From positions 18,161 to 82,160 of the forward strand of contig CACGNZ010000002.1 of the NCBI GenBank assembly GCA_902574475.1: 64,000 nucleotides of DNA, read 5' to 3'. The notes under the pieces were generated by a model. The model was not told the origin of the DNA, did not search any database, and worked only from the letters and a program-made list of their open reading frames with translations. The position numbers and the translations under genes are program-made. Source of the DNA: an uncultured Alphaproteobacteria bacterium (lineage in GTDB: Bacteria; Pseudomonadota; Alphaproteobacteria; HIMB59; GCA-002718135). Position 1 is the stretch's first letter; every line of letters starts with the position of its first letter. This document shows positions 6,624 through 31,583 of the stretch, in pieces.

Positions 6624-8541
6624 TTAAACTTTTAATTTAAAATTCTTTATATCAATAATTTTGTTGTCATAAAAATTATTAATTTCTCTGATTATTGATT
6701 CAGTATCCATTTTAATATCATGATATTGCTCATCCGGTGTCATATGTTCAACAAAACGATCTGGAAAAATTAAATTTTTTATCACAACATTATTCTTTTT
6801 TGATCTTATATTATGGACATAATGTAAAACATGAGATGAAAACCCACCTATAGAACCTTCTTCTATAGTTAAAATATACTTATGATTATTTAATAAGTTA
6901 TCTATTAATTGCATGTCTAATGGTTTTGCAAATCTTGCATCTGCAATAGTAGGATAAATATTATTTTGATTAAGAAACTTACTAGCTTCAATACATTTTT
7001 CAAGTCTCGTTCCTAAATTTAAGATTGCAACATCATTACCTTCAATTAGAATATATCCCTTACCTATATTGATATCTGTGGGCTGATTATTAAATAATTC
7101 ATCTGATCCTGCTCCTCTTGGAAATCTAAAAGCAGATGGTGTGTCATTAATCTCGCAAGATAACTCTATCATATTAGATAACTCTCTTTGGTTGCTAGGC
7201 GCCATAATTATAAAATTTGGTAATGTGGCTAAATAAGTAATATCAAATGAACCGGCATGAGTAGGGCCATCTGATCCTACTAACCCTGCTCTATCAATTG
7301 CAAATCTAACAGGTAATTTTTGAATAGCTACATCATGGACTATTTGATCATAAGCTCTTTGTAAAAATGTTGAATAAATTGCAACAAATGGTTTGAAACC
7401 CTCTGTAGCTAATCCAGCTGCCATTGTAACAGCATGTTGTTCAGCGATACCAACATCAAAAAATCTCTTTTGAAAATTTTGTTGGAATAATTTTAACCCT
7501 GTTCCAGACATCATAGCAGCTGTTATTGCCACAATTTTTTCGTCATTTTCAGCAAGTTTTGTTAGTTTTTCTGCAAAGACATTTGAGTAAGATTTTAAAT
7601 TTGTTTTTTTAACTGAGTTACCTGTATCAATATCAAACTTTTCTACACCATGAAATTTATCTTCTGATTTTTCTGCAGGACTATATCCTTTACCTTTTTT
7701 AGTTATACAATGGAGAAAAACTGGTTTATCAAATTTATTATCTCTAATGTTTTCTAGAACTGAAACCATATCGTCTATATTGTGACCATCTATTGGGCCA
7801 AGATAATAAAAACCCAATTCCTCAAATAAAGTACCTCCAGAGATAAGCCCTTTAGAATATTCTTCAGTTCTATAAAGAGTTTTTGAAAGATTTGATGGTA
7901 ATGTTTTAGAAATTTTTTTTATAATATTTCTTAAGCTTGAGTAAGATTTAGATGAAAGCAATCTAGTTAGATATGTACTCATAGCACCAACTGGTTTGTC
8001 TATTGACATTTTGTTATCATTTAAAATAACAATTAAACCTTTTTTTTTGTGCGCCTGCGTTGTTTAATCCTTCATACGCTAAACCTGCACTTAAAGCACC
8101 ATCTCCAACAACGCATATAACTTTTGAGTTGTCTTTATTTATATCTTTTGCAGTTTTAATTCCTAACCCCGCTGATACTGCTGTTGAACTATGGGCTGTA
8201 CCAAATGGATCATATTCACTTTCTGATCTTCTAACAAAACCATACACACCATCTTTTTTTCTCAGTGTCTCGATATTTTTTTTTCTACCTGTGATGATTT
8301 TATGAGGATAAGCTTGATGTCCCACATCCCAGATTAATTTATCATGTGGAGTGTTAAATACATAGTGGATTGCCACGGTTAACTCAACAACACCAAGTCC
8401 AGCACCTAGATGACCACCAGTTTTTGAAACAGTCTCAATTGTTTTAGCTCTCAATTCTTCTGAGATTTGCTTTAGATCTTTCTTTTTAAATTCTCTTAAG
8501 TCTGATGGAAAATTAATTTTATCTAAAAGATCATAATCCAT
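6624..8541 (-). pseudogene. dxs: 1-deoxy-D-xylulose-5-phosphate synthase, reading frame broken by one extra A in an A9 tract (8040-8048)
   Basis: N-terminal ORF 8017..8541 ([30 protein letters not shown]) ends ...[16 protein letters not shown]-terminal ORF 6624..8009 starts MSIDKPVGAMSTYL. Removing one A gives [23 protein letters not shown], the canonical Dxs (L/I)IVILNDN.MSI block, for a combined length of about 636 aa. Confidence 0.85.
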
Positions 8542-8680
8542 AATTTATTTTACTATTTTTGCTTAGATTTGATATTTTTATATCTGGAAAAAAACAAGTG
8601 TTTGTGGAAAGATTTTAGAGATAAATTTTAAAGTTAAAATCTCTAGACTTTTTAGAATTTAAAAACTAATTATAATATTA

Positions 8681-9919
8681 ATGTTTTATGATGTAGATAC
8701 AAAAAAAATTGATAAACTTGCACATCTATCTATTAAAAGAGGAGTTGCACTTCAAAAAGGTCAAAACCTTTTAATAACAGCACCCTTAGAATCTTTACCT
8801 TTAGTTAGAAAAATAGCTGAATATGCTTACAAAGAAGGAGCTGGACTTGTTACTCCACTTTTCAATGATTCTGATATTACATTATCTCGATTTAAGTTTG
8901 GCAATGATGAATCTTTCAATGTTGCAGCAAATTGGCTTTATAATGGGATGGGTGAAGCTTTTGATAATAATACGGCTAGAATGGCCATTGCTGGTGATGA
9001 CCCAATGCTATTATCTGAAATTGATCCTGATAAAGTTTCGCGCGCAAATAAAGCTAATGCAGTTGCATACAAACCAGCTAGAGAAAGAATTACTGAATTT
9101 AAGATTAACTGGAATATAATTTCTTGGCCAGGAAAAGCATGGGCAAAAAGAGTCTTCCCAGATCTTGATGAGAGTGAAGCAATTAAAAAATTAGGAGATG
9201 CAATATTTCATGCATCAAGAGTTAGTAATGATGATCCTGTAAGTGAATGGGACCAACATAATAAAAATTTAAGAGATAAAACAGATTGGTTAAATGCTAA
9301 AAATTTTCATTCGTTAAAATACTCTGGCCCTGGAACATCTTTAACTGTAGGTCTTGCTGATGACCATGAGTGGATGGGAGGCGCATCAGAGGCACAGAAT
9401 GGTATTGTTTGTAATCCAAATATCCCATCTGAAGAAGTGTTCACAACCCCTCATGCTGCTCGTGTAAGTGGTGAAGTCTGTTCAACCAAACCTCTATCTT
9501 ATCAAGGAACCCTAATTGAAGATATTAATGTTCGCTTTGAAGATGGTAAAATTGTTGATGCAAAATCCTCTAAAGGACAAGATGTTTTATTAAAAGTTCT
9601 TGATTCAGATGAAGGCTCAAGAAGACTTGGTGAAGTAGCCTTAGTTCCGAATAGCTCACCTATTTCGCAATTAGGAATAACTTTTTATAACACTCTTTTT
9701 GATGAAAATGCTGCCTCTCATATTGCTTTAGGACAGTGTTACTCAAAATGTTTCAAATCCAAAAAAGACTTATCAAAAGAAGAGATTACTCAAAGAGGTG
9801 GTAATTCAAGCATGATACATATTGATTGGATGATTGGCTCAGGTGAAATTGATGTCGAGGGTGTTGATAAGGATGGCGCTGCTACGCCAATATTTAAACA
9901 AGGAGAATGGTGTAACTAG
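8681..9919 (+). CDS. M29-family aminopeptidase (AmpS/PepS-like)
   Basis: 412 aa. The overall pattern (KLAHLSIKRGVALQKGQNLLI..., C-terminal HIALG...IHIDWMIG) matches thermophilic-metalloprotease M29 aminopeptidases. Confidence 0.8.
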   Translation: MFYDVDTKKIDKLAHLSIKRGVALQKGQNLLITAPLESLPLVRKIAEYAYKEGAGLVTPLFNDSDITLSRFKFGNDESFNVAANWLYNGMGEAFDNNTARMAIAGDDPMLLSEIDPDKVSRANKANAVAYKPARERITEFKINWNIISWPGKAWAKRVFPDLDESEAIKKLGDAIFHASRVSNDDPVSEWDQHNKNLRDKTDWLNAKNFHSLKYSGPGTSLTVGLADDHEWMGGASEAQNGIVCNPNIPSEEVFTTPHAARVSGEVCSTKPLSYQGTLIEDINVRFEDGKIVDAKSSKGQDVLLKVLDSDEGSRRLGEVALVPNSSPISQLGITFYNTLFDENAASHIALGQCYSKCFKSKKDLSKEEITQRGGNSSMIHIDWMIGSGEIDVEGVDKDGAATPIFKQGEWCN

Positions 9920-10038
9920 TTTTTTAAATAAGGTCCAAAGCTAAGATCTAAACCAACACCAACTCTAGCTAATGAATAAATAATAACTAAGAAAAAAATT
10001 ACTATAACTAAGTTTCGTATAATTTTTTTTTCATCCAT
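9916..10038 (-). CDS. Candidate 40-aa small membrane protein (not in ORF track)
   Basis: ATG at 10038, 5 nt after the stop of the upstream MFS gene. Hand translation MDEKKIIRNLVIVIFFLVIIYSLARVGVGLDLSFGPYLKN* shows one hydrophobic helix. Its stop overlaps the convergent aminopeptidase stop. No homology evidence. Confidence 0.25.
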   Translation of the reverse strand: MDEKKIIRNLVIVIFFLVIIYSLARVGVGLDLSFGPYLKN

Positions 10039-10042
10039 AAAA

Positions 10043-11296
10043 TTACGCTGTTTGTATATTTGTATTAGATAATGGTTTTTCTCTAATTGGTAAATGGATT
10101 ATTGCAGAAAAGGCGCCTACTCCTATACCAACCCACCATACAATATCATAACTTCCATAGATATCATAAAATAGACCACCTAACCAAACACCTACAAAAG
10201 ATCCTAGCTGATGAGAAAAAAATACAATTCCATATAATGTACCCATAAATTTTAATCCATAAATATGGCCTATAATTCCTGAAGTTAAAGGAACTGTTGC
10301 TAACCATAAAGCACCCATAACTATTGAAAATATTGCAATAGATATTGGTGTAATAGGCAGTAAGATAAATAAAATTGCCGCAATAGTCCTTCCAGTGTAA
10401 ATAAAAGATAAAAGATATTTCTTATAATGTCCCTTTCCTAAGGCTCCAGCAATCAAACAACCAATTATATTAAACAATCCTATAAGAGCCATAGATAATG
10501 CTCCTAAACCTTCTACAGAATTACAAACCAAACTTATTAAACTTCCTTCTATAATTGGACTACTAGATTCAACAATAAATGCTGGAAAATGTGCAGTAAT
10601 AAATGCTAACTGAAAACCGCAAGAAAAAAAACCAAAGAACAACATTGAGTATGTTGGATCTTTTAATGCAACAAATACAGCATCAGTAATTTTTTCATTT
10701 TCATTATTAATATTTGTATTTAATAATTCTGTTTTTAAAATTGGAACAACTATCAATGTTATTAATAATATAATTGAAAAGATTTCAAAAACTGAAGACC
10801 AAGGCAAAAAAGATAATAAAATAGAGGCAAGTGGTGGGCCAACCACTTGTCCAGCCGATCCTGCAGCAGTTGTAATACCTAGTGCTAAAGATCTTTTTTC
10901 TGGAGATGTGGCTCTTCCAACTACCGCTAAAATTGGACCAAATCCACTACCAGCTATACCAAAACCAATTAATAGGTTTAAAGTTTGATGCGCCTCTGGA
11001 GTCGTAGCAGTACTACTTATGAAAATTCCAATTGCATAAAGAATTAAGCCTAGCGCTATTGCTTTTCTATCACCATATTTTTCGGCAAAAGCACTAAATA
11101 GTGGAGTGCCTACCCCCCAAGCTAAATTTTGAATAGCAATGGCAAGAGAAAATTCTGAACGGTTCCATAAAAAATCAGACGCAATAGGAATTTGAAATAG
11201 GCCAAATGTTGAACGGATTGCAAAACTTATTAGAAGAATTAAGCTTCCACCAATCAGAATAGGAGTAAATACAGAATTAACTCTCTCATCTTTCAT
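10043..11296 (-). CDS. MFS transporter
   Basis: 417 aa with about 12 predicted hydrophobic segments and an MFS-like loop G.FAEKYGDRKAI between TM2 and TM3. Confidence 0.7.
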   Translation of the reverse strand: MKDERVNSVFTPILIGGSLILLISFAIRSTFGLFQIPIASDFLWNRSEFSLAIAIQNLAWGVGTPLFSAFAEKYGDRKAIALGLILYAIGIFISSTATTPEAHQTLNLLIGFGIAGSGFGPILAVVGRATSPEKRSLALGITTAAGSAGQVVGPPLASILLSFLPWSSVFEIFSIILLITLIVVPILKTELLNTNINNENEKITDAVFVALKDPTYSMLFFGFFSCGFQLAFITAHFPAFIVESSSPIIEGSLISLVCNSVEGLGALSMALIGLFNIIGCLIAGALGKGHYKKYLLSFIYTGRTIAAILFILLPITPISIAIFSIVMGALWLATVPLTSGIIGHIYGLKFMGTLYGIVFFSHQLGSFVGVWLGGLFYDIYGSYDIVWWVGIGVGAFSAIIHLPIREKPLSNTNIQTA

Positions 11297-11346
11297 ATTT
11301 TAATAGATAACAGGAAGAATTTTTATTTCTAGAATTTTTATTATTA

Positions 11347-11823
11347 TTAAATCGTATTATTTAATTCTGTCTTTTCGTTTTCTTCTTTTTCAGGAACAAC
11401 ATATGCAACAGCACAATGATCTAAACAATAAGGCTTATCTTCAAATCTATCTTTGCCACAAAAACCAAAGTCAGCTTCATCTGGATGACCTTCAGGCCAT
11501 TCACAACCTCTCTTTGGAGATGCAGTGAATATATTTTTAACCACCGGTTGGAAAACAGCAGGTTCTGTAGAGACAATCTCTGGTTCTTTGGTGCTTTCAA
11601 AATTTAATTTTGGCATTACCGGAGACCTAGCTTTCTTTCGATCAGGTTTAACAGCTGTTCTTCTTATAGGTGATGGTCTTCTCTCAAGTCCAATTCTATG
11701 AGCTTTTCCAACAACAGCATTTTTAGTGAAACCTAGTAATTTTCCAATTTGAGCTGTCGGTAGACCTTGGTCCCACAAATCTCTAAGTTTTGCTACATTA
11801 TTATCATCCCAAGGCATTATCAA
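11347..11823 (-). CDS. gcrA: Cell-cycle regulator GcrA
   Basis: 158 aa. N-terminus MPWDDNNVAKLRDLWDQGLPTAQIGKLLG... and a C-terminal Cys-containing block (CEWP...FCG...YC..H) are typical of GcrA. GGAG lies 7 nt upstream of the ATG at 11823. Confidence 0.85.
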   Translation of the reverse strand: MIMPWDDNNVAKLRDLWDQGLPTAQIGKLLGFTKNAVVGKAHRIGLERRPSPIRRTAVKPDRKKARSPVMPKLNFESTKEPEIVSTEPAVFQPVVKNIFTASPKRGCEWPEGHPDEADFGFCGKDRFEDKPYCLDHCAVAYVVPEKEENEKTELNNTI

Positions 11824-11955
11824 TCTCCATTACTACATTTAGTAGCTTAAAAAGGCTTTAATATACTAAATGTATGTATTAAAAAAGATAAAACTGCAAA
11901 TTTTTAAAAAAAATCAATGAATTCCAGCATTTTTTTTATATAAATGTGAATAGAA

Positions 11956-13152
11956 ATGAAAGAATTAAGAGATCTAGACTGTAAAAATAAAAAAATAATT
12001 CTTAGAGTTGATTTAAACGTACCAGTTTTGGAAGGCACAATTACAGATCATTCAAGAATTCATGCTATCTTACCAACACTAGAAAAACTAATTAAAAATA
12101 AAAATAAGATATTCTTAATTGCTCATTTTGGCCGACCTAAAGGTCAAGTTAATAAAACATATTCCATTGAGTTTTTATGTTCAGAATTAAAAAAATTTTT
12201 AAATTTAAACTCAATTCATTTTTTAGCTAACTGTGAAAAAAAAATAATTGAGAAAAAAATTGCTGAAATGGACTTGGGGGAAATTTGTCTATTAGAAAAT
12301 ATTCGTTTTAATTCGGAAGAAGAAAAAAATGGTCTTAATTTTTCAAAATTATTAGCTTCTAGTTTTGACATATATATTAATGACGCGTTTTCTGCATCTC
12401 ATCGTAATCATGCATCTATAGTAGGTATTACTAAATACTTACCTTCATACGCTGGATTAAGTTTCTCAAAAGAAATTGAAAATTTAGATAAATTTTTAGA
12501 AAATTCAGACAAACCAAATCTAGCTATTATAGGTGGCTCAAAGGTTTCAACAAAAATAAAAGTTTTAGAAAATATAGTTGAAATTTTTGACTCTTTAGTG
12601 ATTGGTGGTGCAATGGCTAATACCTTTTTGCTATCAAATAATTATAAGGTTGGTTCTTCTCTTGTAGAAAATGATTTTATTGAACTATCAAAAAAGATAC
12701 AAAAAAAAGCAGAATCAAAAAATTGCAAAATACTTTTACCAATTGATGCTGTTTGCTCAAAAACAATAGAAGATAGAGTAAATGTTAAGACTTATTCAAT
12801 CAATAAAATTCCAAAAGACCAAATGATATTAGATGTTGGTGAACAAACTACAAAATTAATTTCAAATGAAATATTAAAATCTAAATCAATTTTATGGAAT
12901 GGGCCTTTAGGTGCATTCGAGTATAGTCCATTTGATAAAAGTACAATTTCAGTTGCAAATATTATACAACATTATTCAAGTAAGTCTCAATTAGATGCTT
13001 TAGCAGGAGGAGGAGATACACTTGCAGCAATAAAAAAAGCTAAAGCCAATGATGCATTTAAATATTTATCTACAGCTGGGGGTGCATTTTTAGAGTGGCT
13101 TGAGGGAAATAAATCACCAGGATTTATAGCATTAAGAGAAAATAATTTTTAA
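11956..13152 (+). CDS. pgk: Phosphoglycerate kinase
   Basis: 398 aa with ILRVDLNVP and AGGGDT motifs. Confidence 0.95.
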   Translation: MKELRDLDCKNKKIILRVDLNVPVLEGTITDHSRIHAILPTLEKLIKNKNKIFLIAHFGRPKGQVNKTYSIEFLCSELKKFLNLNSIHFLANCEKKIIEKKIAEMDLGEICLLENIRFNSEEEKNGLNFSKLLASSFDIYINDAFSASHRNHASIVGITKYLPSYAGLSFSKEIENLDKFLENSDKPNLAIIGGSKVSTKIKVLENIVEIFDSLVIGGAMANTFLLSNNYKVGSSLVENDFIELSKKIQKKAESKNCKILLPIDAVCSKTIEDRVNVKTYSINKIPKDQMILDVGEQTTKLISNEILKSKSILWNGPLGAFEYSPFDKSTISVANIIQHYSSKSQLDALAGGGDTLAAIKKAKANDAFKYLSTAGGAFLEWLEGNKSPGFIALRENNF

Positions 13153-13153
13153 C

Positions 13154-13693
13154 TTAATCTTCAATTTGATATTTTTTAATTAAAGGGAATTGTGTCATCG
13201 TAAAAATAAACGTAATTGGCAAGATACCAAAAACTTTAAAATTTACCCAAACATCAGTACTTTGTGTTCTCCAAACAATTTCATTTAAAACAGCAAGTGC
13301 AACAAAAAAAGCAATCCACCTTTGAGTTAATATTCTCCATCCATCTTCTTCTAGTTTAAGCGCAGCACCTAAAAGATACTTTAAAAGAGGTTTTTTAACA
13401 ATCACTCCTCCATATAAAATTAATGCGAAGACCATATTTATTATTGTTGGTTTCATTTTAATAAAAATTTCATTGTCAAAATAAATTGTTAGACCTCCAA
13501 ATATTAATACTATTGCAGCCCCAAGAGTTGGCATAATTGGTATTTTTTTCTCAAGTATATATGAAATGATTACTGAAATTACAGTTGCAATCATAAGAGG
13601 AAGTATTGCTTCTTGAAGACCACTTCTTGTATAAAAAATAAAGAATACAGCAAGCGGTCCTATATCAATTAATAATTTATAAACTGACTTCAT
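13154..13693 (-). CDS. yciB: Intracellular septation protein A (YciB/IspZ family)
   Basis: 179 aa with five hydrophobic segments and the FIKMKPTIINMVFALIL block characteristic of YciB. Confidence 0.8.
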   Translation of the reverse strand: MKSVYKLLIDIGPLAVFFIFYTRSGLQEAILPLMIATVISVIISYILEKKIPIMPTLGAAIVLIFGGLTIYFDNEIFIKMKPTIINMVFALILYGGVIVKKPLLKYLLGAALKLEEDGWRILTQRWIAFFVALAVLNEIVWRTQSTDVWVNFKVFGILPITFIFTMTQFPLIKKYQIED

Positions 13694-14610
13694 TTTTGTT
13701 CTTCTAGATTTAAAATAGACCTAGCAAAGTTTTGCGAATTAAAGCTAACAAGGTCCTCAATACTTTCTCCAAGTCCAACATAACTTATAGGGATTTCAAA
13801 TTTATTTGCAATTGAAATTAATGCTCCACCTTTTGCTGTTCCATCCAATTTTGTTATTATAAGACTTGATACATTAAGTTCATTTCCAAAGATTTCCACT
13901 TGCTTAATCATGTTCGAACCATTCGTTCCATCTAAAACTAACACAGTTTCAATATTAAAAGAGGAATTAACTTTTGAGATAACATTCTTCAATTTAATTA
14001 GCTGATTAATGAGGTTAGTATTATTTGATAATCTTCCAGCAGTATCTATAAGTAAAAAATCATAATTTTCTTTTCCAAATTTTTCAGTTGCCTGATACGC
14101 TACGCTTGCTGGATCTTGATTACTTTTTCCAGCTATAAAACCATTATTATTTTTTTTTGCCCAATTTTCCAACTGCTCAACAGCTGCTGCCCTAAATGTA
14201 TCACAAGCCGCAATCAGAATTTTTTTATTTGATAAAATTTTATTTGCAATTTTACCAATAGTGGTTGTCTTTCCACTTCCGTTTACACCAACAAATATTA
14301 ATATTTTTTTTTCATCATTTTTTTCATTTATAAGAACATGTTCTCTTGGAAGTAATATACTTTCTATATTTTGAGCTAAGATTTCTAATACATTTTTTAT
14401 TCCATCATCATTTGAAATTTTTATTTTTTTTATAGAATCTATTAGATGATTTATAACATCCAAACTAATATCAGATGAAATAAGAACATTTTCTAATTCT
14501 TCTAAAGTTAAATCGTCTATTTTTTTGTTTTTTAAAATCTCTAAAATATTAAAAGAAAGTATATTTGAAGTTTTACTTAACTTATCTTTAAATATTGAGA
14601 ACAAACTCAT
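13690..14610 (-). CDS. ftsY: Signal recognition particle receptor FtsY
   Basis: 306 aa with SRP-GTPase motifs GVNGSGKTTTIGK, DTAGR and TKLDGTAKGG. Confidence 0.9.
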   Translation of the reverse strand: MSLFSIFKDKLSKTSNILSFNILEILKNKKIDDLTLEELENVLISSDISLDVINHLIDSIKKIKISNDDGIKNVLEILAQNIESILLPREHVLINEKNDEKKILIFVGVNGSGKTTTIGKIANKILSNKKILIAACDTFRAAAVEQLENWAKKNNNGFIAGKSNQDPASVAYQATEKFGKENYDFLLIDTAGRLSNNTNLINQLIKLKNVISKVNSSFNIETVLVLDGTNGSNMIKQVEIFGNELNVSSLIITKLDGTAKGGALISIANKFEIPISYVGLGESIEDLVSFNSQNFARSILNLEEQK

Positions 14611-15866
14611 GCTATTCTTGCTAATAACGTATCATTTTCTACGCCTGTGTATATACAGGAAATTATATTTCCTTCTTTAAACTCTTCTTCAAGTTTTACT
14701 TTTAAAAAATGCTGATCTTTTCCAAGTGAAAAATTTTCTTTTCTACTTTCAATTAAAATTTGTTCCCTCTTTCCAATATTTTTTTTTAAATGTTGTTTTA
14801 ATTTTTCAATACCTTTTTCTCTAAGTTTTCTTGCTCTATCTTTGATAATATTTTTTTGAACTTGAGGCATTCTAGATGCAGGAGTGTTTTCTCTTGGTGA
14901 ATAAGGAAAAATATGAAGATGAGTTAAATTACACTCATCAACTAGTTTAATTGAATCTTGAAACATTGTTTCTGTCTCTGTTGGAAAACCGGCAATTATA
15001 TCAGCACCAAATGTTGCATCTTGCCTAATAGATAAAACTTTTTTACAAAAATTAATTGCCATTTCCCTTGAATGTCTTCTTTTCATTCTTTTCAAAATTA
15101 AATTGTTTCCAGCTTGTAAACTTATATGAAAATGAGGCATCAATCTTTCGTCCTTTAAAACATCCCAAAAATCTTCGTCTATTTCAGCGCAGTCAATTGA
15201 AGACAAACGCAGCTGTCTTAATTCAGGTACTAATTTTAGAATTCTTTTAATTAAGTTAGAAAAAGTCGGTTTTGCTGGAAGATCTTTTCCATAATCAGTT
15301 ATATCTACTCCTGTTAAGACTACTTCATTATATCCATTGCTAACAATTTTTTTTATTTTATTTACTATCTCTCCAGCAGGTACGCTTCTATTATTGCCCC
15401 TGCCAAATGGAATAATACAAAAAGTACAGCGATGGTTACAACCTTGTTGAATTTCAATATAAGCTCTCGATTTTCCTTCAAATTTTTCAATTGAATTAGG
15501 TACTGTTTTACTTTCTTCTAATATATTTCCTACTTTAAGATTTTTAGACTGATCGATATTTTTCCATGTTAAATTTTCTAATTTTTCTGTGTTCCCAATT
15601 ACTGAGTCTACTTCTTTTAAATCTTTATATTTTAATGGATTGATTTGAGCCGCACATCCTGTAACTACTATTTTATTATTAGGAAAATTTTTTTTTGCCT
15701 TTCTAATTTCATAAGAAACTTTTTTCTCAGCTTCTTCAGTTACTGCACATGAGTTTATGACTGTAACATTATTTAAATTATTTGTTTTAAGATGGTTTTT
15801 AATGATTTCACCTTCATAAATATTCAATCTACAACCTAGATTGACTACGTAGTTTTTATTTTTCAT
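14607..15866 (-). CDS. mtaB: MiaB-like radical-SAM tRNA methylthiotransferase (MtaB type)
   Basis: 419 aa with the CNHRCTFC radical-SAM cluster. The dapF-mtaB-ftsY order is conserved in alphaproteobacteria. Confidence 0.8.
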   Translation of the reverse strand: MKNKNYVVNLGCRLNIYEGEIIKNHLKTNNLNNVTVINSCAVTEEAEKKVSYEIRKAKKNFPNNKIVVTGCAAQINPLKYKDLKEVDSVIGNTEKLENLTWKNIDQSKNLKVGNILEESKTVPNSIEKFEGKSRAYIEIQQGCNHRCTFCIIPFGRGNNRSVPAGEIVNKIKKIVSNGYNEVVLTGVDITDYGKDLPAKPTFSNLIKRILKLVPELRQLRLSSIDCAEIDEDFWDVLKDERLMPHFHISLQAGNNLILKRMKRRHSREMAINFCKKVLSIRQDATFGADIIAGFPTETETMFQDSIKLVDECNLTHLHIFPYSPRENTPASRMPQVQKNIIKDRARKLREKGIEKLKQHLKKNIGKREQILIESRKENFSLGKDQHFLKVKLEEEFKEGNIISCIYTGVENDTLLARIA

Positions 15867-15869
15867 AAA

Positions 15870-16688
15870 TTATATTTCTAAACTACCTCGATAACTTATT
15901 TCTGCAGGTCCTGTCATAATAGATTCATTATTAACTATATTTATGTGAAGTGATCCTTTTTCAAGTTTTACTTCAGCGTTATTTTCAATTAATTCTTTTT
16001 TCCACGCCGCATATACAGCAGCACAGGCACCACTACCACAAGCTAACGTGATTCCAACCCCACGTTCCCAAACTCTCATTTCAATTAAATTTGAATTAAT
16101 AACTTCAACTATTTCAACATTAGTTTTTTTTGGAAAGAGCTCATGATTTTCTATTTTAGGACCTATACTTTCAAGATCTGTATCTTTGATCGATTTCCCA
16201 AAAAAAACTACATGTGGATTACCTACATTAACAGCAACTCCATTACTATATCCATCAATTGAAATTGGTATATTCATTGTATCGACTTCTTTACTTAAAG
16301 GAATTTTATCCCAAGTATTTTTTATTGAACCCATGTTGACACTTATATTGTTATCTATTTTTTTTGATTCTAATATACCTGCATCAGATTGAATTTTTAA
16401 AATCTCTTTTTTTGAATCTTCATCAAATAGTATTTTTGCCACACAGCGTGTTCCATTACCACAAGCTTCGGCTCTATCACCACCAGGATTAAAAATTTCA
16501 ATTTCAGCATCAGCACTTTGATTACTTGTATTATTAATTGTGATTAATTGATCACACCCTGCCCCAGTTCTTCTGTCACTGAGTCTTTTAATAATATCTT
16601 CAGTAATTGTGATATTGTTAGACCTTTTATCTATGATAACAAAATCGTTCCCAAGTCCATGCATCTTTATGAAGTCTACTTTTTGCAT
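15870..16688 (-). CDS. dapF: Diaminopimelate epimerase
   Basis: 272 aa with the two catalytic Cys blocks ACGNGTRC and CGSGACA. Confidence 0.9.
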   Translation of the reverse strand: MQKVDFIKMHGLGNDFVIIDKRSNNITITEDIIKRLSDRRTGAGCDQLITINNTSNQSADAEIEIFNPGGDRAEACGNGTRCVAKILFDEDSKKEILKIQSDAGILESKKIDNNISVNMGSIKNTWDKIPLSKEVDTMNIPISIDGYSNGVAVNVGNPHVVFFGKSIKDTDLESIGPKIENHELFPKKTNVEIVEVINSNLIEMRVWERGVGITLACGSGACAAVYAAWKKELIENNAEVKLEKGSLHINIVNNESIMTGPAEISYRGSLEI

Positions 16689-16834
16689 ATTTGTTTTATA
16701 ACCTAATTTATCAATAAATCTCAGTAAATATGGGAAATTTAAGAATACTTGACTTTCAATTATTCAGCTAATAGAGGGTCACCAACAAATCCTATATTTG
16801 TAAACGAATTGAGCTTGTTACAATCGTGATAGGT

Positions 16835-16865
16835 ACTCTAGCCCACGAGTTTCGTGCCCTGGAGT
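16835..16865 (+). promoter_or_regulatory. GC-rich hairpin in the ffh 5' leader (candidate cis-regulatory RNA)
   Basis: ACUCUAG(16835-41)/CUGGAGU(16859-65) gives 7 bp including one G.U. A 2x2 C/C internal loop follows, then CACGA(16844-48)/UCGUG(16852-56) closing a GUU loop. A TACAAT -10-like box lies at 16819-24, and GGAG lies 6 nt before the ATG at 16886. Confidence 0.45.
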
Positions 16866-16885
16866 TAAAAGGCTATTGGAGATTT

Positions 16886-18250
16886 ATGTTTGATACACTG
16901 AACACAAAATTTGAAAAAATTGTTCAAAGCATTCGGGGTAAGGCTGTTATATCAGAAACAGATCTTGAAGTTACATTACGTGAAATTAGAATTGCTCTGT
17001 TAGAGGCAGACGTTTCCTTAGTTGTAGTAAAAGAATTTATAAATTCCATCAAGTTAAACGTTTTAGGAAAAGAAATTCTCAAATCTGTTAAGCCAGATCA
17101 AATGATCATAAAGCTTGTGCAAGATGAGCTTGTAAAAATTCTTGGATCAGAAAATAAATCTATAAATTTATCTTCTTCTCAATTAACTAAAATATTGTTT
17201 TGTGGATTACAGGGATCTGGGAAAACAACATCAATTGCCAAACTTTCCTATTTGTTAAAGAAGTCTTCAAAGAAAAAAATTTTATTAGCTTCAGCAGATA
17301 TTTATCGACCAGCAGCACAAGAACAATTAAAAGTATTAGCTGAAGAAACCGGCTCAGATTTCTTTAATCACAATCTATCATCAGCCAGTACGATTGTTGA
17401 TGATTCCATAGACTATGCTCAAAAAAATTTATTTGATATTCTTATTTTAGATACTGCTGGACGACAAGTTGTAGATAAAAAGTTAATGAGTGAATTAATA
17501 GAAATTGAAAATAAGTTTAAACCTGACGAAACATTATTAGTAGCAGATGCTCTAACAGGACAAGATGCTGCAAATGTAGCTAAAAGTTTTAGTGATGCAA
17601 TAAATATTACTGGATCAATTTTAACTCGAATAGATGGTGATAGCAGGGGTGGTGCAGCACTATCTATTAAATCGATAACAAACTCTCCTATAAAATTTAT
17701 AGGACTAGGTGAAAAAGTAGAAAATTTTGAACCTTTCCATCCTGAAAGAATTGCACAAAGAATTTTAGGTATGGGAGATATTGTATCTCTTGTCGAAAAG
17801 GCTGCTGAAAATATTGATAAAGAAGAAATGGAAGATATGGCAAAAAAGATCGCTAAAGGAAAATTTGATCTTGAAGATTTTGCCAATCAATTAAAGCAAA
17901 TGGGTAAAATGGGTGGAGTCTCCGGTTTACTTTCTATGATGCCAGGTGTTTCAAAGGCACAGAAGTTAATGGCAGAAAATAAAATTTCTAATTCAATGAT
18001 TGATAAACAAATAGCTATAATCAGTTCAATGACAAAAAAAGAAAGGGCTGATCCAGATATTATAAAGGCTTCACGTAAAATTAGAATTTCAAAAGGATCT
18101 GGAACAAAAGTTCAAGACGTTAACAGGTTATTAAAACAGTTTCTCCAATCACAAAAAATGATGAAGAGAATGAAATCAATGGGCAAAGGAGGAATTCCCA
18201 GTGATTTAATGCAAAAATTACAAGGAAATCTTCCTCCAAACATAAATTAG
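16886..18250 (+). CDS. ffh: Signal recognition particle protein Ffh
   Basis: Start chosen at ATG 16886 (MFDTLNTKFEKI, canonical Ffh N-terminus) rather than the tracked GTG at 16826. Motifs GLQGSGKTT, DTAGR, TRIDGDSRGGAALS and a Met-rich M domain. Confidence 0.9.
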   Translation: MFDTLNTKFEKIVQSIRGKAVISETDLEVTLREIRIALLEADVSLVVVKEFINSIKLNVLGKEILKSVKPDQMIIKLVQDELVKILGSENKSINLSSSQLTKILFCGLQGSGKTTSIAKLSYLLKKSSKKKILLASADIYRPAAQEQLKVLAEETGSDFFNHNLSSASTIVDDSIDYAQKNLFDILILDTAGRQVVDKKLMSELIEIENKFKPDETLLVADALTGQDAANVAKSFSDAINITGSILTRIDGDSRGGAALSIKSITNSPIKFIGLGEKVENFEPFHPERIAQRILGMGDIVSLVEKAAENIDKEEMEDMAKKIAKGKFDLEDFANQLKQMGKMGGVSGLLSMMPGVSKAQKLMAENKISNSMIDKQIAIISSMTKKERADPDIIKASRKIRISKGSGTKVQDVNRLLKQFLQSQKMMKRMKSMGKGGIPSDLMQKLQGNLPPNIN

Positions 18251-18262
18251 AAAGGAAATAAA

Positions 18263-18832
18263 ATGCCAGTAAGAATAAGATTATCAAGAGGTGGTGCAAA
18301 GAAAAGACCATTTTATAGAATAGTAGTTGCTGATTCTAGAAGAGCTAGAGATGGAAAATTTATAGATCAAATTGGAACTTACAACCCAATGCTTCCAAAG
18401 GATAGCGCTGATAGAGTTAAAATGGATTTAGACAAAGCTAAGGAATGGATTGCAAAAGGAGCAAAACCATCAGATAGAATTTCTATTTTTCTTAGCAATC
18501 TTGGTGTGATGGAAAAACCAGTTATTACTGAAAAAACAAAAAAACATCTACCTAAGAAAAAAGCACAGGAACGTTTGGCTGCTGCTAAAGAAAAAGAAGA
18601 AGCTGCGAAAGCTGCAGCAGAAGAACCAAAAGCAGAAGAAGCAGAAGCTAAGCCAGCTGAAGATGCACAACCTGCTGAAGAACCAAAAGCAGAAGAAGCA
18701 GAAGCTAAGCCAGCTGAAGATGCACAACCTGCTGAAGAACCAAAAGCAGAAGAAGCAGAAGCTAAGCCAGCTGAAGATGCACAACCTGCTGAAGAACCAA
18801 AAGCAGAAGAAGCAGAAGCTAAAAAAGAATAA
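18263..18832 (+). CDS. rpsP: 30S ribosomal protein S16 with a ~100-aa repetitive acidic C-terminal extension
   Basis: N-terminus [26 protein letters not shown]. 189 aa versus 82 aa in E. coli. The tail is built of [19 protein letters not shown] repeats. Confidence 0.9.
18620..18821. repeat. Perfect 57-bp tandem repeat, 3 full copies plus a 31-nt partial copy, inside rpsP
   Basis: The unit gaagaaccaaaagcagaagaagcagaagctaagccagctgaagatgcacaacctgct occurs at 18620-18676, 18677-18733 and 18734-18790. All three copies are identical by direct comparison. A partial copy spans 18791-18821. Confidence 0.95.
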
Positions 18833-18846
18833 AATCAATTTTTGCT

Positions 18847-19353
18847 TTGAGTAATAAAGATATTATTCTTGTTGGTCAGTTTGGATCTCCTGTAGGATTA
18901 AAAGGTGAAATAAAAGTTAATATGATGACTACCTCGTTTGAAGTTTTTAAAAATTTAAAAAACTATTATAATTTTGATGGTTCAGTTGCTTGGAATTTTA
19001 AAAATATTTTATTCAAAAATAATAAGTGTGTTGTTCAAGTTGAAAAATACTTTTCTAGAGAAGATGTTTTAGAGCTTAAAGGTCAAAAAATTTTTTCAAA
19101 TAAGAAATTTTTTCCAAAAACAAAAGATAATGAGTTTTACATAAACGATCTAATCAAATGCATTATTTTCTTGAAAGACAATACTAGTATTGGAAAAGTT
19201 TTAAGTGTTCAAAATTTTGGGGCAGGTGATTTATTAGAAGTCAAATATAATACCAAACTTATTCTTATACCTTTTGATAAAACAAATATTTTATCAGTTA
19301 ATATTAATAAAAAAGAAATTATAGCTGATCCAATACCTGGTATTCTTGATTAA
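18847..19353 (+). CDS. rimM: 16S rRNA processing protein RimM
   Basis: 168 aa with a TTG start. ILVGQFGSPVGLKGEIKV N-terminal block and position between rpsP and trmD. Confidence 0.8.
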   Translation: MSNKDIILVGQFGSPVGLKGEIKVNMMTTSFEVFKNLKNYYNFDGSVAWNFKNILFKNNKCVVQVEKYFSREDVLELKGQKIFSNKKFFPKTKDNEFYINDLIKCIIFLKDNTSIGKVLSVQNFGAGDLLEVKYNTKLILIPFDKTNILSVNINKKEIIADPIPGILD

Positions 19354-20052
19354 ATGAGAGTAGTAATTTTAACTTGTTATCCTGAGATGTTTCCTGGTTC
19401 ACTAGGATATTCTGTAATCGGAAATGCATTAAACAATAAAAAATTTTATCTCGAGATAGTCAATCTACATAATTTTGGAATTGACAAAAGAGGAAGTGTT
19501 GATGATGAACCTTTTGGGGGAGGCCCTGGAATGGTTATTCGTCCAGATGTGATTGAAAAAGCATTAAATTCAATCACTTTCAAAACCGATAATTACTGCA
19601 AAATTTTTCTAACACCATCAGGTCAGAAATTATCTCAAGCCAAACTTAATAATCTATCAAAACATGATGAAATGCTTATTTTATGCGGTAGATTTGAAGG
19701 GGTTGACCAAAGAGCTATAGAAATTCTTGATTTTCAGGAAATAAGTATCGGTGATTACGTCCTTTCTGGTGGTGAGATTGCTGCCCAGGTGTTAGTTGAA
19801 GGTTGTATTCGTCTCATTCCTGGAGTATTAGGGCAGCCACAAAGTTTATTAGAAGAATCTTTTTCTAATAATCTGCTTGAATATCCTCATTATACCAGAC
19901 CACAAACCTGGGAAGATATTCAGGGAAATAAACATGAAGTTCCAGATGTTTTAACATCAGGTCATCATGAAAAAATTGATAAATGGAGAAAAGAAAAATC
20001 GGTTGAAAAAACTAAAGAACTAAGACCAGATCTTTATAAAAAGGAAATATAA
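19354..20052 (+). CDS. trmD: tRNA (guanine37-N1)-methyltransferase
   Basis: 232 aa with [10 protein letters not shown] and LSGGEIAA motifs. Confidence 0.9.
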
Positions 20053-20053
20053 A

Positions 20054-20659
20054 ATGAGTAATTTATTAGAGACATTTGAAAAACAACAGATTGAAAAGTT
20101 AACTTCAAAAAAAAGAGTTCCTGCTTTTCGTCCAGGTGATACTTTAAAAGTTACTGTAAGAATTACAGAGGGAAGTAAGTCGAGACTTCAAGCATTTGAA
20201 GGTATTTGTATTGCAAGAAAAAATAATTCAGTAAACTCTAACTTTACTGTGAGAAAAATATCTCATGGAGAGGGTGTTGAAAGAGTATTCCCTTTATTCA
20301 GTCCATTAGTAGAAAAAATTGATGTTGTTAGAAAAGGCGATGTAAGAAGAGCTAAGCTATATTATCTAAGAGAATTATCTGGAAAGAAAGCAAGGATCGC
20401 AGATAAAGATAGGGGCGATGAAGCTGATCAATATGAATATATAGAGGAAGCTCCTCCGGTAGAAGAAAAAAAAACTGCAGATACAGATACAAATGCTGCA
20501 GAGGAACCAAAAGCTGAAGAGGTAGAAGCAAAACAAGCAGATACAAAAGCAGAAGAAGCAGAAGCCAAACCAGCAGAAGAATCTAAAGCAGAAGCTGCAG
20601 AGGAATCTAGTAAAGAAGAGGAAAAAGCAGCCGAAAATAAATCGGATGACAATAAATAA
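20054..20659 (+). CDS. rplS: 50S ribosomal protein L19 with a ~85-aa acidic C-terminal extension
   Basis: [13 protein letters not shown] core. 201 aa versus 115 aa in E. coli. The tail is rich in A/E/K/P and contains [12 protein letters not shown]. Confidence 0.9.
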
Positions 20660-22049
20660 TCCTAAAACTCTTTTTGATAAAATTTGGGAACATCATCTTG
20701 TTGATAGACAAGAAGATGGAACTTGTCTTATATATATTGATAGACACCTTGTTCATGAAGTTACGAGCCCTCAAGCATTTGAAGGTTTAAGAAATAATAA
20801 TCGTAAAGTTAGAAGACCCGAAAGTACTTTTGCTGTAGCTGATCACAATGTTCCAACCTCAGATAGATCTAAAGGTATAGAAAATAAAGAAAGTAGAATT
20901 CAGGTTGAAACACTAGAAAAAAATTGCAAAGATTTTGATGTTACACTTTTTCCATTATTAGACAGCAGACAAGGTATAGTTCATATAGTTGGACCAGAAC
21001 AAGGCATTACTCAGCCAGGTATGACAATAGTTTGTGGTGATAGTCATACAGCAACACACGGAGCATTTGGTGCATTAGCTTTTGGTATCGGCACAAGCGA
21101 AGTTGAGCATGTATTAGCTACTCAGACCTTAATTCAAAAACCTGCAAAGAATATGCGAATTTCTGTTGAAGGTAAGTTAAACTTAGGTGTTACAGCAAAA
21201 GATATTATTCTTCATATAATAGGAAAAATAGGAACGGCTGGTGGAACTGGTTATGTTATTGAATATGCTGGTAATGCAATTTCCTCTCTTTCTATGGAAG
21301 GAAGAATGACAATCTGCAATATGAGTATTGAAGCAGGAGCTAGAGCTGGTTTAATCGCTCCTGATGAAAAAACTTTTGAATATATTAAAGGTAGACCGTA
21401 CGCTCCATCAGGAGATAATTGGAATAAAGCGGTAGAATTTTGGAAATCTCTTCCATCTGATGAGGGCGCAAAATATGATGAAGAAATTTTAATTAATGCT
21501 GAAGATATTTCACCACAAATTACTTGGGGCACAAGCCCACAAGACGTTGTTGCTATAGATGGTATAGTACCAAACCCACAAGAAGAGAGTAATCCGAATA
21601 GAAAGAGGGCTATGGAACGTTCTCTTGAATATATGGGTTTAGAACCCAAACAAGAAATACAAAAAATTAAAATTGATAAAGTATTTATTGGCTCTTGCAC
21701 TAATGGAAGAATTGAGGATTTAAGAGAAGTTGCCAAAGTTGTAGAGGGCAAAAAAGTTTCTGTTAACTCAATGATCGTTCCTGGTTCAGGTCTAGTTAAA
21801 AAACAAGCTGAAGAAGAAGGTTTAGATAAAATTTTTATTGAAGCAGGATTTGATTGGAGAGAGCCTGGTTGCTCTATGTGTTTAGCTATGAATCCAGATC
21901 AATTAAAACCGCAAGAAAGATGTGCATCAACATCAAATAGAAATTTTGAAGGTAGACAGGGTAGAGAAGGTAGAACACATCTTGTTAGTCCTGCAATAGC
22001 TGCTGCCTCTGCAATCAAAGGTTCTTTTGCAACAGCAGAGGATTTATAA
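20646..22049 (+). CDS. leuC: 3-isopropylmalate dehydratase large subunit
   Basis: 467 aa with VCGDSHT and CSMCLAMN cluster ligands. The start overlaps the rplS 3' end by 14 nt. Confidence 0.95.
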
Positions 22050-31253: not shown

Positions 31254-31391
31254 GCCGGACTCTAAAACTAGTTTGTACCTTGGCAGACACCTCTCTAGAA
31301 TAAGAAACTCAACTAATTATCAAACGGCGGGTAAGATAATTAAAAATTCTTGGCGTTCCTCCGAAGCTAAGAAACGAGTATTATCCGGCTT
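31252..31391 (+). ncRNA. Candidate structured RNA (unknown class) in the long sdhC-upstream intergenic region
   Basis: The island is about 40% GC by hand count, against a far more AT-rich flank. Nested helices: AGGCCGGA(31252-59)/UCCGGCUU(31384-91); UAAUUAUC(31314-21)/GAUAAUUA(31335-42) with a G-rich 13-nt loop; UUCUUGGC(31347-54)/GCUAAGAA(31366-73) plus UUC/GAA closing a CUCC loop. Two G.U pairs would be A.C on the other strand, so the + strand is favoured. Confidence 0.35.
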
Positions 31392-31583
31392 ATTGAGAGT
31401 AATATCTATCTACTTAAAATTCAAGATTTTTAGTTAAATTTGGCATTAAATTTGCTTGATTTTAATAAAAATTATCACTTTTTATCAACATTTTACAAAC
31501 TTCCATGATAGTAAGAAAAAATAACTAAACCATTAATATTTTGAAATTTAAAGAAAAATACTTACTTATGGAACATAAAGAAT

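What the first reader, a model, noticed from the sequence alone, without database searches (positions are those of the whole stretch)
8007..8050. dxs is split by a single extra A in an A9 homopolymer
The two adjacent minus-strand ORFs (8017..8541 and 6624..8009) are the N- and C-terminal parts of one Dxs. On the coding strand the junction reads gca caa aaa aaa agg ttt aat tgt tat ttt aaa tga. With eight As instead of nine it reads [23 protein letters not shown], which is in frame with the downstream ORF and restores the conserved IVILNDN.MSI block. Dxs is the first enzyme of the MEP isoprenoid pathway and also feeds thiamine and pyridoxal synthesis, so a true null would be surprising in a streamlined free-living genome. 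Three readings are possible. It could be a homopolymer sequencing or assembly error. It could be a genuine recent pseudogene. Or it could be a gene rescued by transcriptional or translational slippage on the poly(A) tract, as described for AT-rich endosymbiont genomes. A longer T10 tract at 45042-45051 (coding strand) is in frame, so homopolymer miscalls are at least not pervasive here.
Basis: partly seen in the sequence, partly recalled or inferred. Interest (0 to 1): 0.6.

Follow-up and report, generated by a model that had tools for sequence, protein, structure and literature searches.

The report
One-base homopolymer frameshift splitting SAR11 dxs
An essential vitamin- and isoprenoid-pathway gene (dxs) in this marine SAR11-type genome is split by one extra A in a run of A's that has eight A's in most close relatives and nine in none, which most likely reflects a sequencing or amplification error or a very recent private mutation, not a new biological mechanism.

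Summary
On the minus strand, dxs is cut into a 174-aa ORF (8017-8541) and a 461-aa ORF (6624-8009) by an A9 run at 8040-8048. Removing one A gives a 638-aa protein that matches the Dxs equivalog model end to end (806 bits, cut-off 466).

The organism is a SAR11 (Pelagibacteraceae) bacterium. Among the Pelagibacteraceae genomes examined, 52 have A8 at this tract and the rest have shorter or interrupted runs. The 4 metagenome contigs matching the A8 pattern have A8, including the closest relative (96.6% identity over 14 kb). A9 was found nowhere else.

Apart from the extra A the gene looks healthy. dN/dS is 0.06-0.10, within the range of its relatives. No catalytic motif is damaged, and the upstream region is conserved. 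No other split gene was seen in the 64 kb, and 13 other coding-strand A9 runs are in frame.

The two ORFs cannot form a two-piece enzyme, because residues 168-177 ([10 protein letters not shown], the NDN half of the GDG...NDN cofactor motif) are encoded by neither.

Most likely reading: a homopolymer length artefact, with A8 as the true sequence. Second: a very recent real mutation at an indel hot spot in a lineage that lacks mismatch repair. Maintained slippage rescue is unsupported but not excluded. Only reads or resequencing can decide. Interest is low.

The parts
8040..8048 (-). A9 homopolymer on the coding strand (T9 on the plus strand). It has one base more than the A8 (CAA AAA AAA GG) found in most relatives, and this causes the +1 frameshift.
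   Evidence: 52 related genomes have A8 and none has A9. The closest relative L080 has A8.
8017..8541 (-). N-terminal dxs ORF of 174 aa. It holds Dxs residues 1-167, including the GDG half of the thiamine-diphosphate motif (G146-D147-G148), followed by 7 out-of-frame residues (RFNCYFK) and a TGA stop at 8017-8019.
6624..8039 (-). The rest of the Dxs reading frame (residues 168-638), in the frame reached by dropping one A. The mechanically listed ORF starts only at ATG 8009 (Met178). Residues 168-177 ([10 protein letters not shown], with the NDN motif) therefore lie in neither listed ORF.
8542..8680 (-). Intergenic region upstream of dxs, facing the divergent M29 aminopeptidase gene. A conserved block (CTTTCCACAAAC...TTGTTTTTTT..AGATATAAAAAT) is intact and nearly identical to relatives L006 and L059.
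   Evidence: A promoter role is inferred, not tested.

Best explanation
The extra A is most likely not a stable property of this lineage. The living lineage most likely carries the A8 version and an ordinary intact 638-aa Dxs. A9 would then have arisen as a one-base length error at a homopolymer during DNA amplification, sequencing or consensus calling.

Shown:
- The sequence has A9.
- A8 restores a complete Dxs.
- 52 of the related genomes examined and the 4 metagenome contigs that match the A8 pattern have A8; the other relatives have shorter or interrupted runs, and none has A9.
- The gene shows no other sign of decay.

Inferred: that the ninth A is an artefact rather than a real base in the source DNA.
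For: - One A fewer gives a full-length Dxs: TIGR00204 806 bits, profile positions 3-613 of 616; full-length match to solved DXS structures.
- 52 related Pelagibacteraceae genomes have A8 at the tract; the others have shorter or interrupted runs; none has A9. Every close relative differs from the window's coding sequence by exactly one gap, placed in this tract.
- In JGI metagenome contigs the A9 pattern has 0 matches and the same pattern with A8 has 4. The closest relative found (L080, 96.6% identity over 14 kb) has A8, and this is the only frame-breaking indel inside a gene across those 14 kb.
- There is no decay. dN/dS against relatives is 0.06-0.10, versus 0.026-0.095 among relatives at the same divergence. 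The three window-specific substitutions (G323A, E357Q, T543M) lie outside the GDG...NDN motif, and at two of them the plant DXS aligned also departs from the SAR11 consensus (it has Ala at 323). The upstream conserved block is intact.
- The as-written gene should be null. Residues 168-177 ([10 protein letters not shown]) are encoded by neither ORF. In thiamine-diphosphate enzymes the Asp of GDG and the Asn of the NDN motif hold the Mg2+ that anchors the cofactor (established knowledge, recalled from the E. coli DXS structure 2O1S).
- Dxs supplies isoprenoids and the DXP used for thiamine and pyridoxal synthesis, so a fixed null is unlikely in a free-living cell (pathway knowledge).
- All tested neighbouring genes are full-length housekeeping genes.
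- Similar one-base poly-A breaks of dxs occur sporadically in other public SAR11 assemblies: L084, a single-cell genome, at another tract, and L085, a TARA scaffold, at this same tract. This is the pattern expected of scattered errors or private variants.
Against: - No reads are available, so the artefact is not demonstrated.
- The assembly is otherwise clean. No other split gene was seen in 64 kb, and 13 other coding-strand A9 runs and one T10 are in frame. Homopolymer miscalling is therefore not pervasive.
- Related single-cell genomes show no unpaired frameshift in 395 kb of aligned sequence, so such errors are rare in comparable data.
- SAR11 lacks mutS and mutL (PMC12374537). Real indels at A8 runs should therefore be frequent, and a real private mutation is a serious alternative.
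- No same-strain sequence was found. Five exact-protein look-ups returned nothing.
Confidence: 0.6

Rival explanations
1. A genuine, very recent A8-to-A9 replication-slippage mutation in the sequenced cell, culture or population. It would inactivate dxs and would not yet be purged, or it would be sampled from a dead-end cell. Any expression of full-length Dxs would be incidental leakiness.
For: - Homopolymers are indel hot spots, and SAR11 lacks mutS and mutL (PMC12374537).
- The window holds 58 coding-strand A runs of 8 or 9 bases in 64 kb.
- There is a single lesion, dN/dS is normal and the upstream region is intact, so any mutation must be very young.
- The assembly is otherwise free of frameshifts.
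- Comparable poly-A breaks of dxs occur in another single-cell genome (L084) and in a TARA scaffold (L085).
Against: - A null in an essential gene should exist only at about the mutation rate. The prior for catching it at one given site is therefore very low, and probably lower than the error rate at that site (inference).
- A9 was not seen in any other genome or contig.
- The two ORFs cannot complement each other, because the NDN segment is lost.
Confidence: 0.28
2. A genuine A9 allele that the lineage tolerates because expression-level slippage restores the frame. Two routes are possible:
- RNA polymerase makes A8 transcripts (wild-type protein) or A11 transcripts (one extra Lys).
- Ribosomes shift +1 at AAA-AAA-AGG.
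This would resemble the frameshifted poly-A genes of Buchnera and Blochmannia.
For: - Bacterial RNA polymerase slips efficiently on runs of 9 A or T (review PMC5009743).
- Frameshifted poly-A genes without decay are reported in Blochmannia, with about 30% full-length transcripts (PMC3017870).
- An A11 run rescues Citrobacter tssM at about 20-25% (PMC4256274).
- In the shifted frame the codon after the run is AGG, which is rare here (2.8 per 1000, versus 25.3 for AGA). Lys-tRNA could re-pair perfectly one base ahead, which resembles Ty1 CUU-AGG-C (recalled knowledge).
- The gene is otherwise under purifying selection.
Against: - The frameshift is not conserved. It appears in none of the related genomes examined, nor in the four A8-pattern metagenome contigs. 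The endosymbiont cases, by contrast, are shared between populations or species.
- Restoring the frame needs a one-base deletion or a two-base insertion. Slippage in homopolymers is mostly one-base insertion. E. coli RNA polymerase gave no detectable deletion rescue on poly(A) up to A8 (PMC6260861). Transcriptome-wide data found no frame-restoring events in Buchnera (PMC5574713).
- No significant stimulatory RNA structure was found: z = -0.28 upstream, -1.16 downstream and -2.17 for 111 nt.
- SAR11 has a huge effective population size, so a costly allele of this kind should be purged (inference).
Confidence: 0.07
3. An ordinary decaying copy, with Dxs activity supplied by a second dxs or another DXP source elsewhere in the genome.
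For: Only 64 kb of the genome can be seen, so a second copy cannot be excluded directly.
Against: - The gene lies at the conserved panB-dxs-M29 peptidase locus, where relatives carry their intact dxs.
- It is 93-97% identical in protein to those orthologues.
- It shows no relaxed selection and only the one lesion.
- No second dxs-like gene was seen among the window proteins scanned.
Confidence: 0.03
4. A functional two-chain Dxs, made by translating the two ORFs separately in the manner of natural split transketolases.
For: - The C-terminal ORF's ATG lies 7 nt after the upstream stop, so re-initiation is conceivable.
- Split-chain transketolases exist (6yaj and 6yak).
Against: - The break lies inside the GDG...NDN cofactor motif, not at a domain boundary.
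- Residues 168-177, including NDN, are encoded by neither piece.
- The natural split transketolase chains of 309 and 341 aa divide between domains.
- No relative has this arrangement.
Confidence: 0.01

Closest known systems
Homopolymer-length errors in genome assemblies (single-base indels at long A/T runs)
   Same: A single +1 base in a run of 8 or more bases. It is private to one assembly. The gene is otherwise perfect, and its relatives are intact.
   Different: The error is not demonstrated here, because no reads are available. The rest of the 64 kb shows no other such event.
Frameshifted poly(A)-tract genes of Buchnera and Blochmannia, rescued by transcriptional slippage (Tamas et al. 2008, recalled; Williams & Wernegreen 2010, PMC3017870)
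   Same: An AT-rich genome with an essential gene interrupted by a single indel inside a poly(A) run of 9 or more, and no other decay. The density of coding poly(A) runs of 9 or more is similar: 14 in 64 kb here, against 114-153 per Blochmannia genome.
   Different: Those frameshifts are shared among populations or species and occur in tiny-population endosymbionts. Here the frameshift is a singleton (none of the related genomes examined, nor the four A8-pattern metagenome contigs, carries it) in a free-living lineage. The needed correction is -1 or +2, not the favoured +1.
Programmed transcriptional realignment sites (Thermus dnaX A9, Shigella mxiE, Citrobacter tssM A11; PMC5009743, PMC4256274)
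   Same: The slippery element is the same kind and has about the same length (A9).
   Different: Programmed sites are conserved and give two useful products. This site is A8 and in frame in most relatives, and never A9, and its short product would be a useless fragment.
+1 ribosomal frameshift sites with a hungry codon (prfB CUU-UGA-C; yeast Ty1 CUU-AGG-C; recalled knowledge)
   Same: A P-site codon that can re-pair perfectly one base ahead (AAA to AAA) is followed by the rare codon AGG.
   Different: This context arises automatically from A8-GG plus one A. There is no conserved stimulator and no conservation of the shift.
Split-chain transketolase (PDB 6yaj/6yak)
   Same: A thiamine-diphosphate enzyme of the same superfamily encoded as two polypeptides.
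   Different: The natural split lies between domains and keeps every motif. Here the break removes the NDN metal-binding segment.

Membership tests
1-deoxy-D-xylulose-5-phosphate synthase (Dxs, TIGR00204) | Full-length match above the curated cut-off | tested here: met
   The repaired 638-aa protein scores 806.1 bits against a cut-off of 465.95, covering profile positions 3-613 of 616. It also matches DXS structures 7bzx and 2o1s over its full length.
1-deoxy-D-xylulose-5-phosphate synthase (Dxs, TIGR00204) | Uninterrupted GDG-X(25)-NDN thiamine-diphosphate/Mg2+ motif in one polypeptide, as encoded in the DNA | tested here: not met
   GDG (residues 146-148) is in ORF 8017-8541. NDN (residues 174-176) is in neither listed ORF, because the frameshift falls after residue 167.
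Programmed or maintained slippage-dependent gene (endosymbiont poly-A type, dnaX/tssM type) | A homopolymeric A/T run long enough to be slippery (about 9 or more) | tested here: met
   A9 at 8040-8048; the length threshold comes from PMC5009743.
Programmed or maintained slippage-dependent gene (endosymbiont poly-A type, dnaX/tssM type) | The frameshift is conserved in related strains or species | tested here: not met
   None of the related genomes examined, nor the four A8-pattern metagenome contigs, has A9. 52 genomes and those four contigs have in-frame A8, and the remaining relatives have shorter or interrupted runs.
Programmed or maintained slippage-dependent gene (endosymbiont poly-A type, dnaX/tssM type) | A mixed mRNA pool, or a full-length protein made from the frameshifted template | not testable with these tools
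   This needs cDNA amplicon sequencing or proteomics from the source organism.
Programmed or maintained slippage-dependent gene (endosymbiont poly-A type, dnaX/tssM type) | A stimulatory context (nascent-RNA hairpin, Shine-Dalgarno-like element or downstream structure) | tested here: inconclusive
   Local folds give z = -0.28, -1.16 and -2.17. A weak hairpin ends next to the run, but it lies in constrained coding sequence that A8 relatives share.
Decaying pseudogene | Multiple lesions, relaxed selection, or loss of expression signals | tested here: not met
   There is one indel only. dN/dS is 0.06-0.10, within the range of relatives. The upstream conserved block is intact.
Assembly or sequencing artefact | The underlying reads or a resequenced template show the in-frame length (A8) | not testable with these tools
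   No reads are available. No same-strain record was found in the protein collection.

The most novel reading that the evidence does not exclude
The A9 allele is real and viable. A free-living, mismatch-repair-deficient SAR11 cell would then keep an essential gene working through RNA-polymerase or ribosome slippage on the poly(A) run (A8 or A11 transcripts, or a +1 shift at AAA-AGG). That would extend endosymbiont-style 'slippage rescue' to the most abundant free-living bacteria, whose genomes are as rich in coding poly(A) runs as Blochmannia.
Probability: 0.07. Interest if true: 0.6.

Novelty: already known. Interest (0 to 1): 0.15.

Why it matters
Mostly for annotation quality. Read literally, this genome would be scored as lacking Dxs, and therefore as lacking the MEP isoprenoid pathway and the DXP supply for thiamine and pyridoxal. 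That would be a false auxotrophy call. The gene should be annotated as dxs with a probable homopolymer frameshift and checked against the reads.

There is a broader point, which I did not follow up beyond the literature. SAR11 genomes carry about one coding poly(A) run of 8 or more bases per kb and lack mutS and mutL (PMC12374537). Real and artefactual one-base frameshifts should therefore both recur, and dxs is broken at poly-A runs in at least two other public SAR11 assemblies. A systematic, read-backed survey could show whether any such frameshifts are real and tolerated.

Tried and rejected
- Fuzzy-regex extraction of the junction from the loci timed out. I replaced it with blastn and anchored regular expressions.
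- Five window proteins were looked up by exact sequence to find the source or a same-strain contig: both dxs fragments, the M29 peptidase, panB and a 967-aa protein. None is on record, so the source and sequencing platform remain unknown.
- The metagenome search for the A9 allele found nothing. The matching A8 pattern found only 4 contigs, so this negative has little power.
- A protein search with the 174-aa fragment looked for the same truncated product (tail RFNCYFK) elsewhere. None was found among the inspected truncated hits from the 120 listed. Other truncated forms turned up instead.
- I considered other split genes in the window and rejected them. All same-strand neighbouring ORF pairs with a homopolymer near their junction are separate complete genes.
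- I considered relaxed selection. dN/dS is at the upper end of the relatives' range but inside it. The window has 3 unique nonsynonymous codons and 0 unique synonymous codons. That is too few to mean anything, and none lies in the GDG...NDN motif.
- I considered stimulatory RNA structure around the run. It was not significant.
- Rfam and tRNA scans found nothing near dxs.
- A literature search for Pelagibacter dxs frameshifts or pseudogenes found nothing relevant.
- The two-piece enzyme idea was rejected because the NDN segment is missing.

Full report
**1. Observation**

The minus strand between 8541 and 6624 contains two abutting ORFs:
- 8017..8541 encodes 174 aa and ends ...[15 protein letters not shown].
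- 6624..8009 encodes 461 aa and starts MSIDKPVGA.

Between them the coding strand reads GCGCAC-A9-GGTTTAATTGTTATTTTAAATGATAA. The run occupies 8040-8048 (T9 on the plus strand). The span is 1918 nt, which is 3n+1.

Deleting one A gives a 638-aa ORF reading ...[41 protein letters not shown].... That protein:
- scores 806.1 bits on the NCBIfam equivalog model TIGR00204 (dxs; cut-off 465.95), covering profile positions 3-613 of 616;
- aligns end to end with solved DXS structures (7bzx, E = 4.5e-212; 2o1s, E = 2.6e-181).

**2. What the break does to the protein**

GDG lies at residues 146-148 and NDN at residues 174-176 of the repaired protein. The frameshift falls after residue 167. The first start codon (ATG, GTG or TTG) in the downstream frame is Met178.

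Residues 168-177 ([10 protein letters not shown]) are therefore encoded by neither ORF. In thiamine-diphosphate enzymes the Asp of GDG and the Asn of the NDN motif bind the Mg2+ that anchors the cofactor. This is established knowledge, recalled from the E. coli DXS structure. The spacing here is identical to that of the plant DXS aligned.

A two-chain enzyme is therefore not credible. The natural split transketolase that appears among the hits (6yaj/6yak; chains of 341 and 309 aa) is divided between domains, not inside this motif. Read literally, the gene is null.

**3. Organism and relatives**

A scan of one genome per species returned 79 loci. The top ~50 are SAR11/Pelagibacteraceae single-cell or metagenome-assembled genomes with 93-97% protein identity (86-95% nucleotide identity) over residues 1-638 in one frame.
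- Every close relative differs from the window's coding sequence by exactly one gap, placed in this run.
- At the tract, 52 genomes have A8 (CAA AAA AAA GG). Three have A7, a few have shorter or interrupted runs, and none has A9.
- In JGI metagenome contigs, a degenerate pattern requiring A9 has 0 matches. The same pattern with A8 has 4 matches, so this negative carries little weight.
- One of those four, L080, is the closest relative found: 96.6% identity over 14 kb (window 7875-21997). It has A8. Across those 14 kb the dxs run is the only frame-breaking indel inside a gene.

The 90%-identity protein cluster around the intact form has 372 members. The members inspected are either 638 aa long or fragments on short contigs.

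**4. State of the gene apart from the extra A**

- Pairwise dN/dS between the repaired window gene and its 16 nearest relatives (dS 0.18-0.27) is 0.062-0.096, with a median of 0.074.
- Pairs of relatives in the same dS band give 0.026-0.095, with a median of 0.056. The window is at the upper end of that range but inside it.
- Three residues are unique to the window: G323A, E357Q and T543M. None lies in the GDG...NDN motif, and at positions 323 and 543 the plant DXS aligned also differs from the SAR11 consensus (it has Ala at 323).
- The upstream intergenic block is conserved and nearly identical to L006 and L059.

So there is one lesion and no sign of decay. Whatever happened is either very recent or not real.

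**5. State of the assembly**

- The window is 30.6% G+C and 96.7% coding, and holds 68 long ORFs.
- It contains 74 homopolymers of 8 or more bases, and 71 of them lie inside long ORFs.
- On coding strands there are 44 A8, 14 A9 (13 besides this one), 9 T8, 3 T9 and 1 T10.
- All same-strand neighbouring ORF pairs with a homopolymer near their junction proved to be separate complete genes: rppH and an S41 peptidase, L21 and L27, gloB and metW, and others.
- The 20 further neighbours scanned gave full-length matches wherever a family was found. These include rpoH, dusA, gcrA, pgk, ispZ, ftsY, mtaB, dapF, ffh, rpsP, rimM and trmD, plus weaker carbonic-anhydrase and MFS-transporter matches. Five of the 20 had no family match. 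panB and the M29 peptidase gene were scanned.

Homopolymer miscalls are therefore not pervasive. This neither proves nor excludes a single residual error.

For a base rate, I examined 395 kb of alignment between this 8-kb neighbourhood and 53 relatives. I found no unpaired frameshift singleton.

Against that, the large protein collection does hold other broken SAR11 dxs genes:
- L084, a single-cell genome (GCA_902539045.1), has a one-base deletion in the poly-A run homologous to window 7913-7920. Its product ends ...NIIKKFLKHYHQ....
- L085, a TARA scaffold, has A7 where its near relative L049 has A8, at the very tract studied here. Its product ends ...ALKKSS*.

Sporadic, lineage-private, one-base poly-A breaks of dxs thus recur in public data.

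**6. Could slippage rescue it?**

For rescue:
- The literature supports slippage by bacterial RNA polymerase on runs of 9 A or T (PMC5009743).
- Blochmannia has frameshifted poly-A genes without decay, with about 30% full-length transcripts (PMC3017870).
- An A11 run rescues Citrobacter tssM at about 20-25% (PMC4256274).
- The density of coding poly(A) runs of 9 or more in this window (14 in 64 kb) resembles that of Blochmannia (114-153 per genome).
- In the shifted frame the codon after the run is AGG, which is rare here (2.8 per 1000, versus 25.3 for AGA). Lys-tRNA could re-pair perfectly one base ahead. The site is therefore formally a plausible +1 ribosomal shift site, analogous to Ty1 CUU-AGG-C (recalled knowledge).

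Against rescue:
- This template needs a one-base deletion (giving A8) or a two-base insertion (giving A11 and one extra Lys).
- Homopolymer slippage is dominated by single-base insertions, and no frame-restoring events were seen transcriptome-wide in Buchnera (PMC5574713).
- E. coli RNA polymerase gave no detectable deletion rescue on poly(A) up to A8 (PMC6260861).
- Local RNA folds are unremarkable (z = -0.28, -1.16 and -2.17).
- The decisive point against a maintained mechanism is conservation. The frameshift appears in none of the related genomes examined, nor in the four A8-pattern metagenome contigs.

Incidental low-level rescue would be expected if A9 is real, but nothing suggests that it is selected.

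**7. Weighing the explanations**

- *A fixed null is unlikely.* Dxs is the entry enzyme of the MEP pathway and supplies DXP for thiamine and pyridoxal synthesis (pathway knowledge).
- *Artefact.* This needs one residual homopolymer error in 64 kb.
- *Real private mutation.* This needs a lethal or near-lethal change to have been sampled at one particular site. SAR11 lacks mutS and mutL (PMC12374537), which raises the real indel rate at such runs. This rival therefore deserves substantial weight.
- *Decaying paralogue.* Disfavoured by conserved synteny (panB-dxs-M29 peptidase) and by orthologue-level identity.

My estimates are: artefact 0.60; recent real mutation 0.28; maintained slippage rescue 0.07; second copy elsewhere 0.03; two-chain enzyme 0.01.

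**8. Comparison with known kinds, novelty and verdict**

Under every reading this is a known kind of event: a one-base indel in a homopolymer. It is a Dxs by sequence once repaired. As encoded, it fails the single-polypeptide cofactor-motif requirement. It fails the conservation criterion for programmed or maintained slippage genes, and it fails the criteria for a decaying pseudogene.

The practical consequence concerns annotation. This genome should not be scored as Dxs-deficient without checking the reads.

Interest is low (0.15). The only reading with real interest is slippage-dependent survival of a free-living SAR11 cell. Its probability is about 7%, and it is directly testable with reads, cDNA amplicons and a peptide search.

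Noticed in passing
L084:3001-4754 (GCA_902539045.1, CACBHM010000009.1); homologous to window 7913-7920: Another SAR11 single-cell genome has dxs broken by a one-base deletion in a different poly-A run (ATT-A6-TTT, against ATA-A7-TTT in the window). This gives a 249-aa product (P0136) followed by a second ORF. dxs poly-A runs therefore break repeatedly in public SAR11 assemblies.
   Followed up: partly
L085:2384-2893 (TARA scaffold, ERZ28653895); homologous to window 8040-8048: A more distant SAR11 lineage carries A7 where its near relative L049 has A8, at the same tract. This truncates Dxs to 169 aa (P0144, ...ALKKSS*). The site lies 11 nt from the contig end. I could not tell whether it is an error or a real variant.
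   Followed up: partly
Proteins P0164, P0174, P0212 and P0122: Further truncated or frameshifted Dxs fragments occur in ENA and JGI assemblies. The breaks lie a few codons downstream of the tract or near the C-terminus, and some are in short runs (for example TTAAAT to TTAAAAT). The contigs were not inspected.
   Followed up: no
window, whole; dxs nt 258 = window 8276-8284: Coding-strand poly(A) runs are very dense: 44 A8 and 14 A9 in 64 kb, similar to Blochmannia per kb. One in-frame A9 inside dxs itself (GRKKN) is A9 in 33 of 50 relatives and A8 in 15. The lineage therefore tolerates in-frame A9 runs stably.
   Followed up: partly
window 18600-18830 (rpsP, 18263-18832, +): Ribosomal protein S16 has a C-terminal low-complexity extension rich in Ala, Glu, Lys and Pro. 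In the window it is 114 nt (two blocks of 57 nt) longer than in the closest relative L080.
   Followed up: no
window ~8615 (dxs-M29 peptidase intergenic region, 8542-8680): There is a presence/absence polymorphism of 44-49 nt. The window, L006, L059 and L009 lack an AT-rich insert that L010, L008, L025 and L037 carry. The flanking block CTTTCCACAAAC...TTGTTTTTTT is conserved in all of them.
   Followed up: partly
window 55154-55456 (+): An Rfam match to Rickettsia sRNA47 (RF02800; 63.2 bits against a gathering score of 60) lies antisense to the S41 C-terminal processing peptidase gene (54848-56143, -). It may only reflect conserved coding sequence captured by the model.
   Followed up: no
window 43748-45070 (-), with the T10 run at 45042-45051: This 440-aa ORF has no NCBIfam match. 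The longest homopolymer in the window sits 19 nt from its putative start, within the region that overlaps the upstream gene's end. The true start codon is uncertain.
   Followed up: no
window 31254-31583: This 330-nt stretch is the largest gap in the window without an ORF of 70 aa or more. It has no Rfam or tRNA hit.
   Followed up: no
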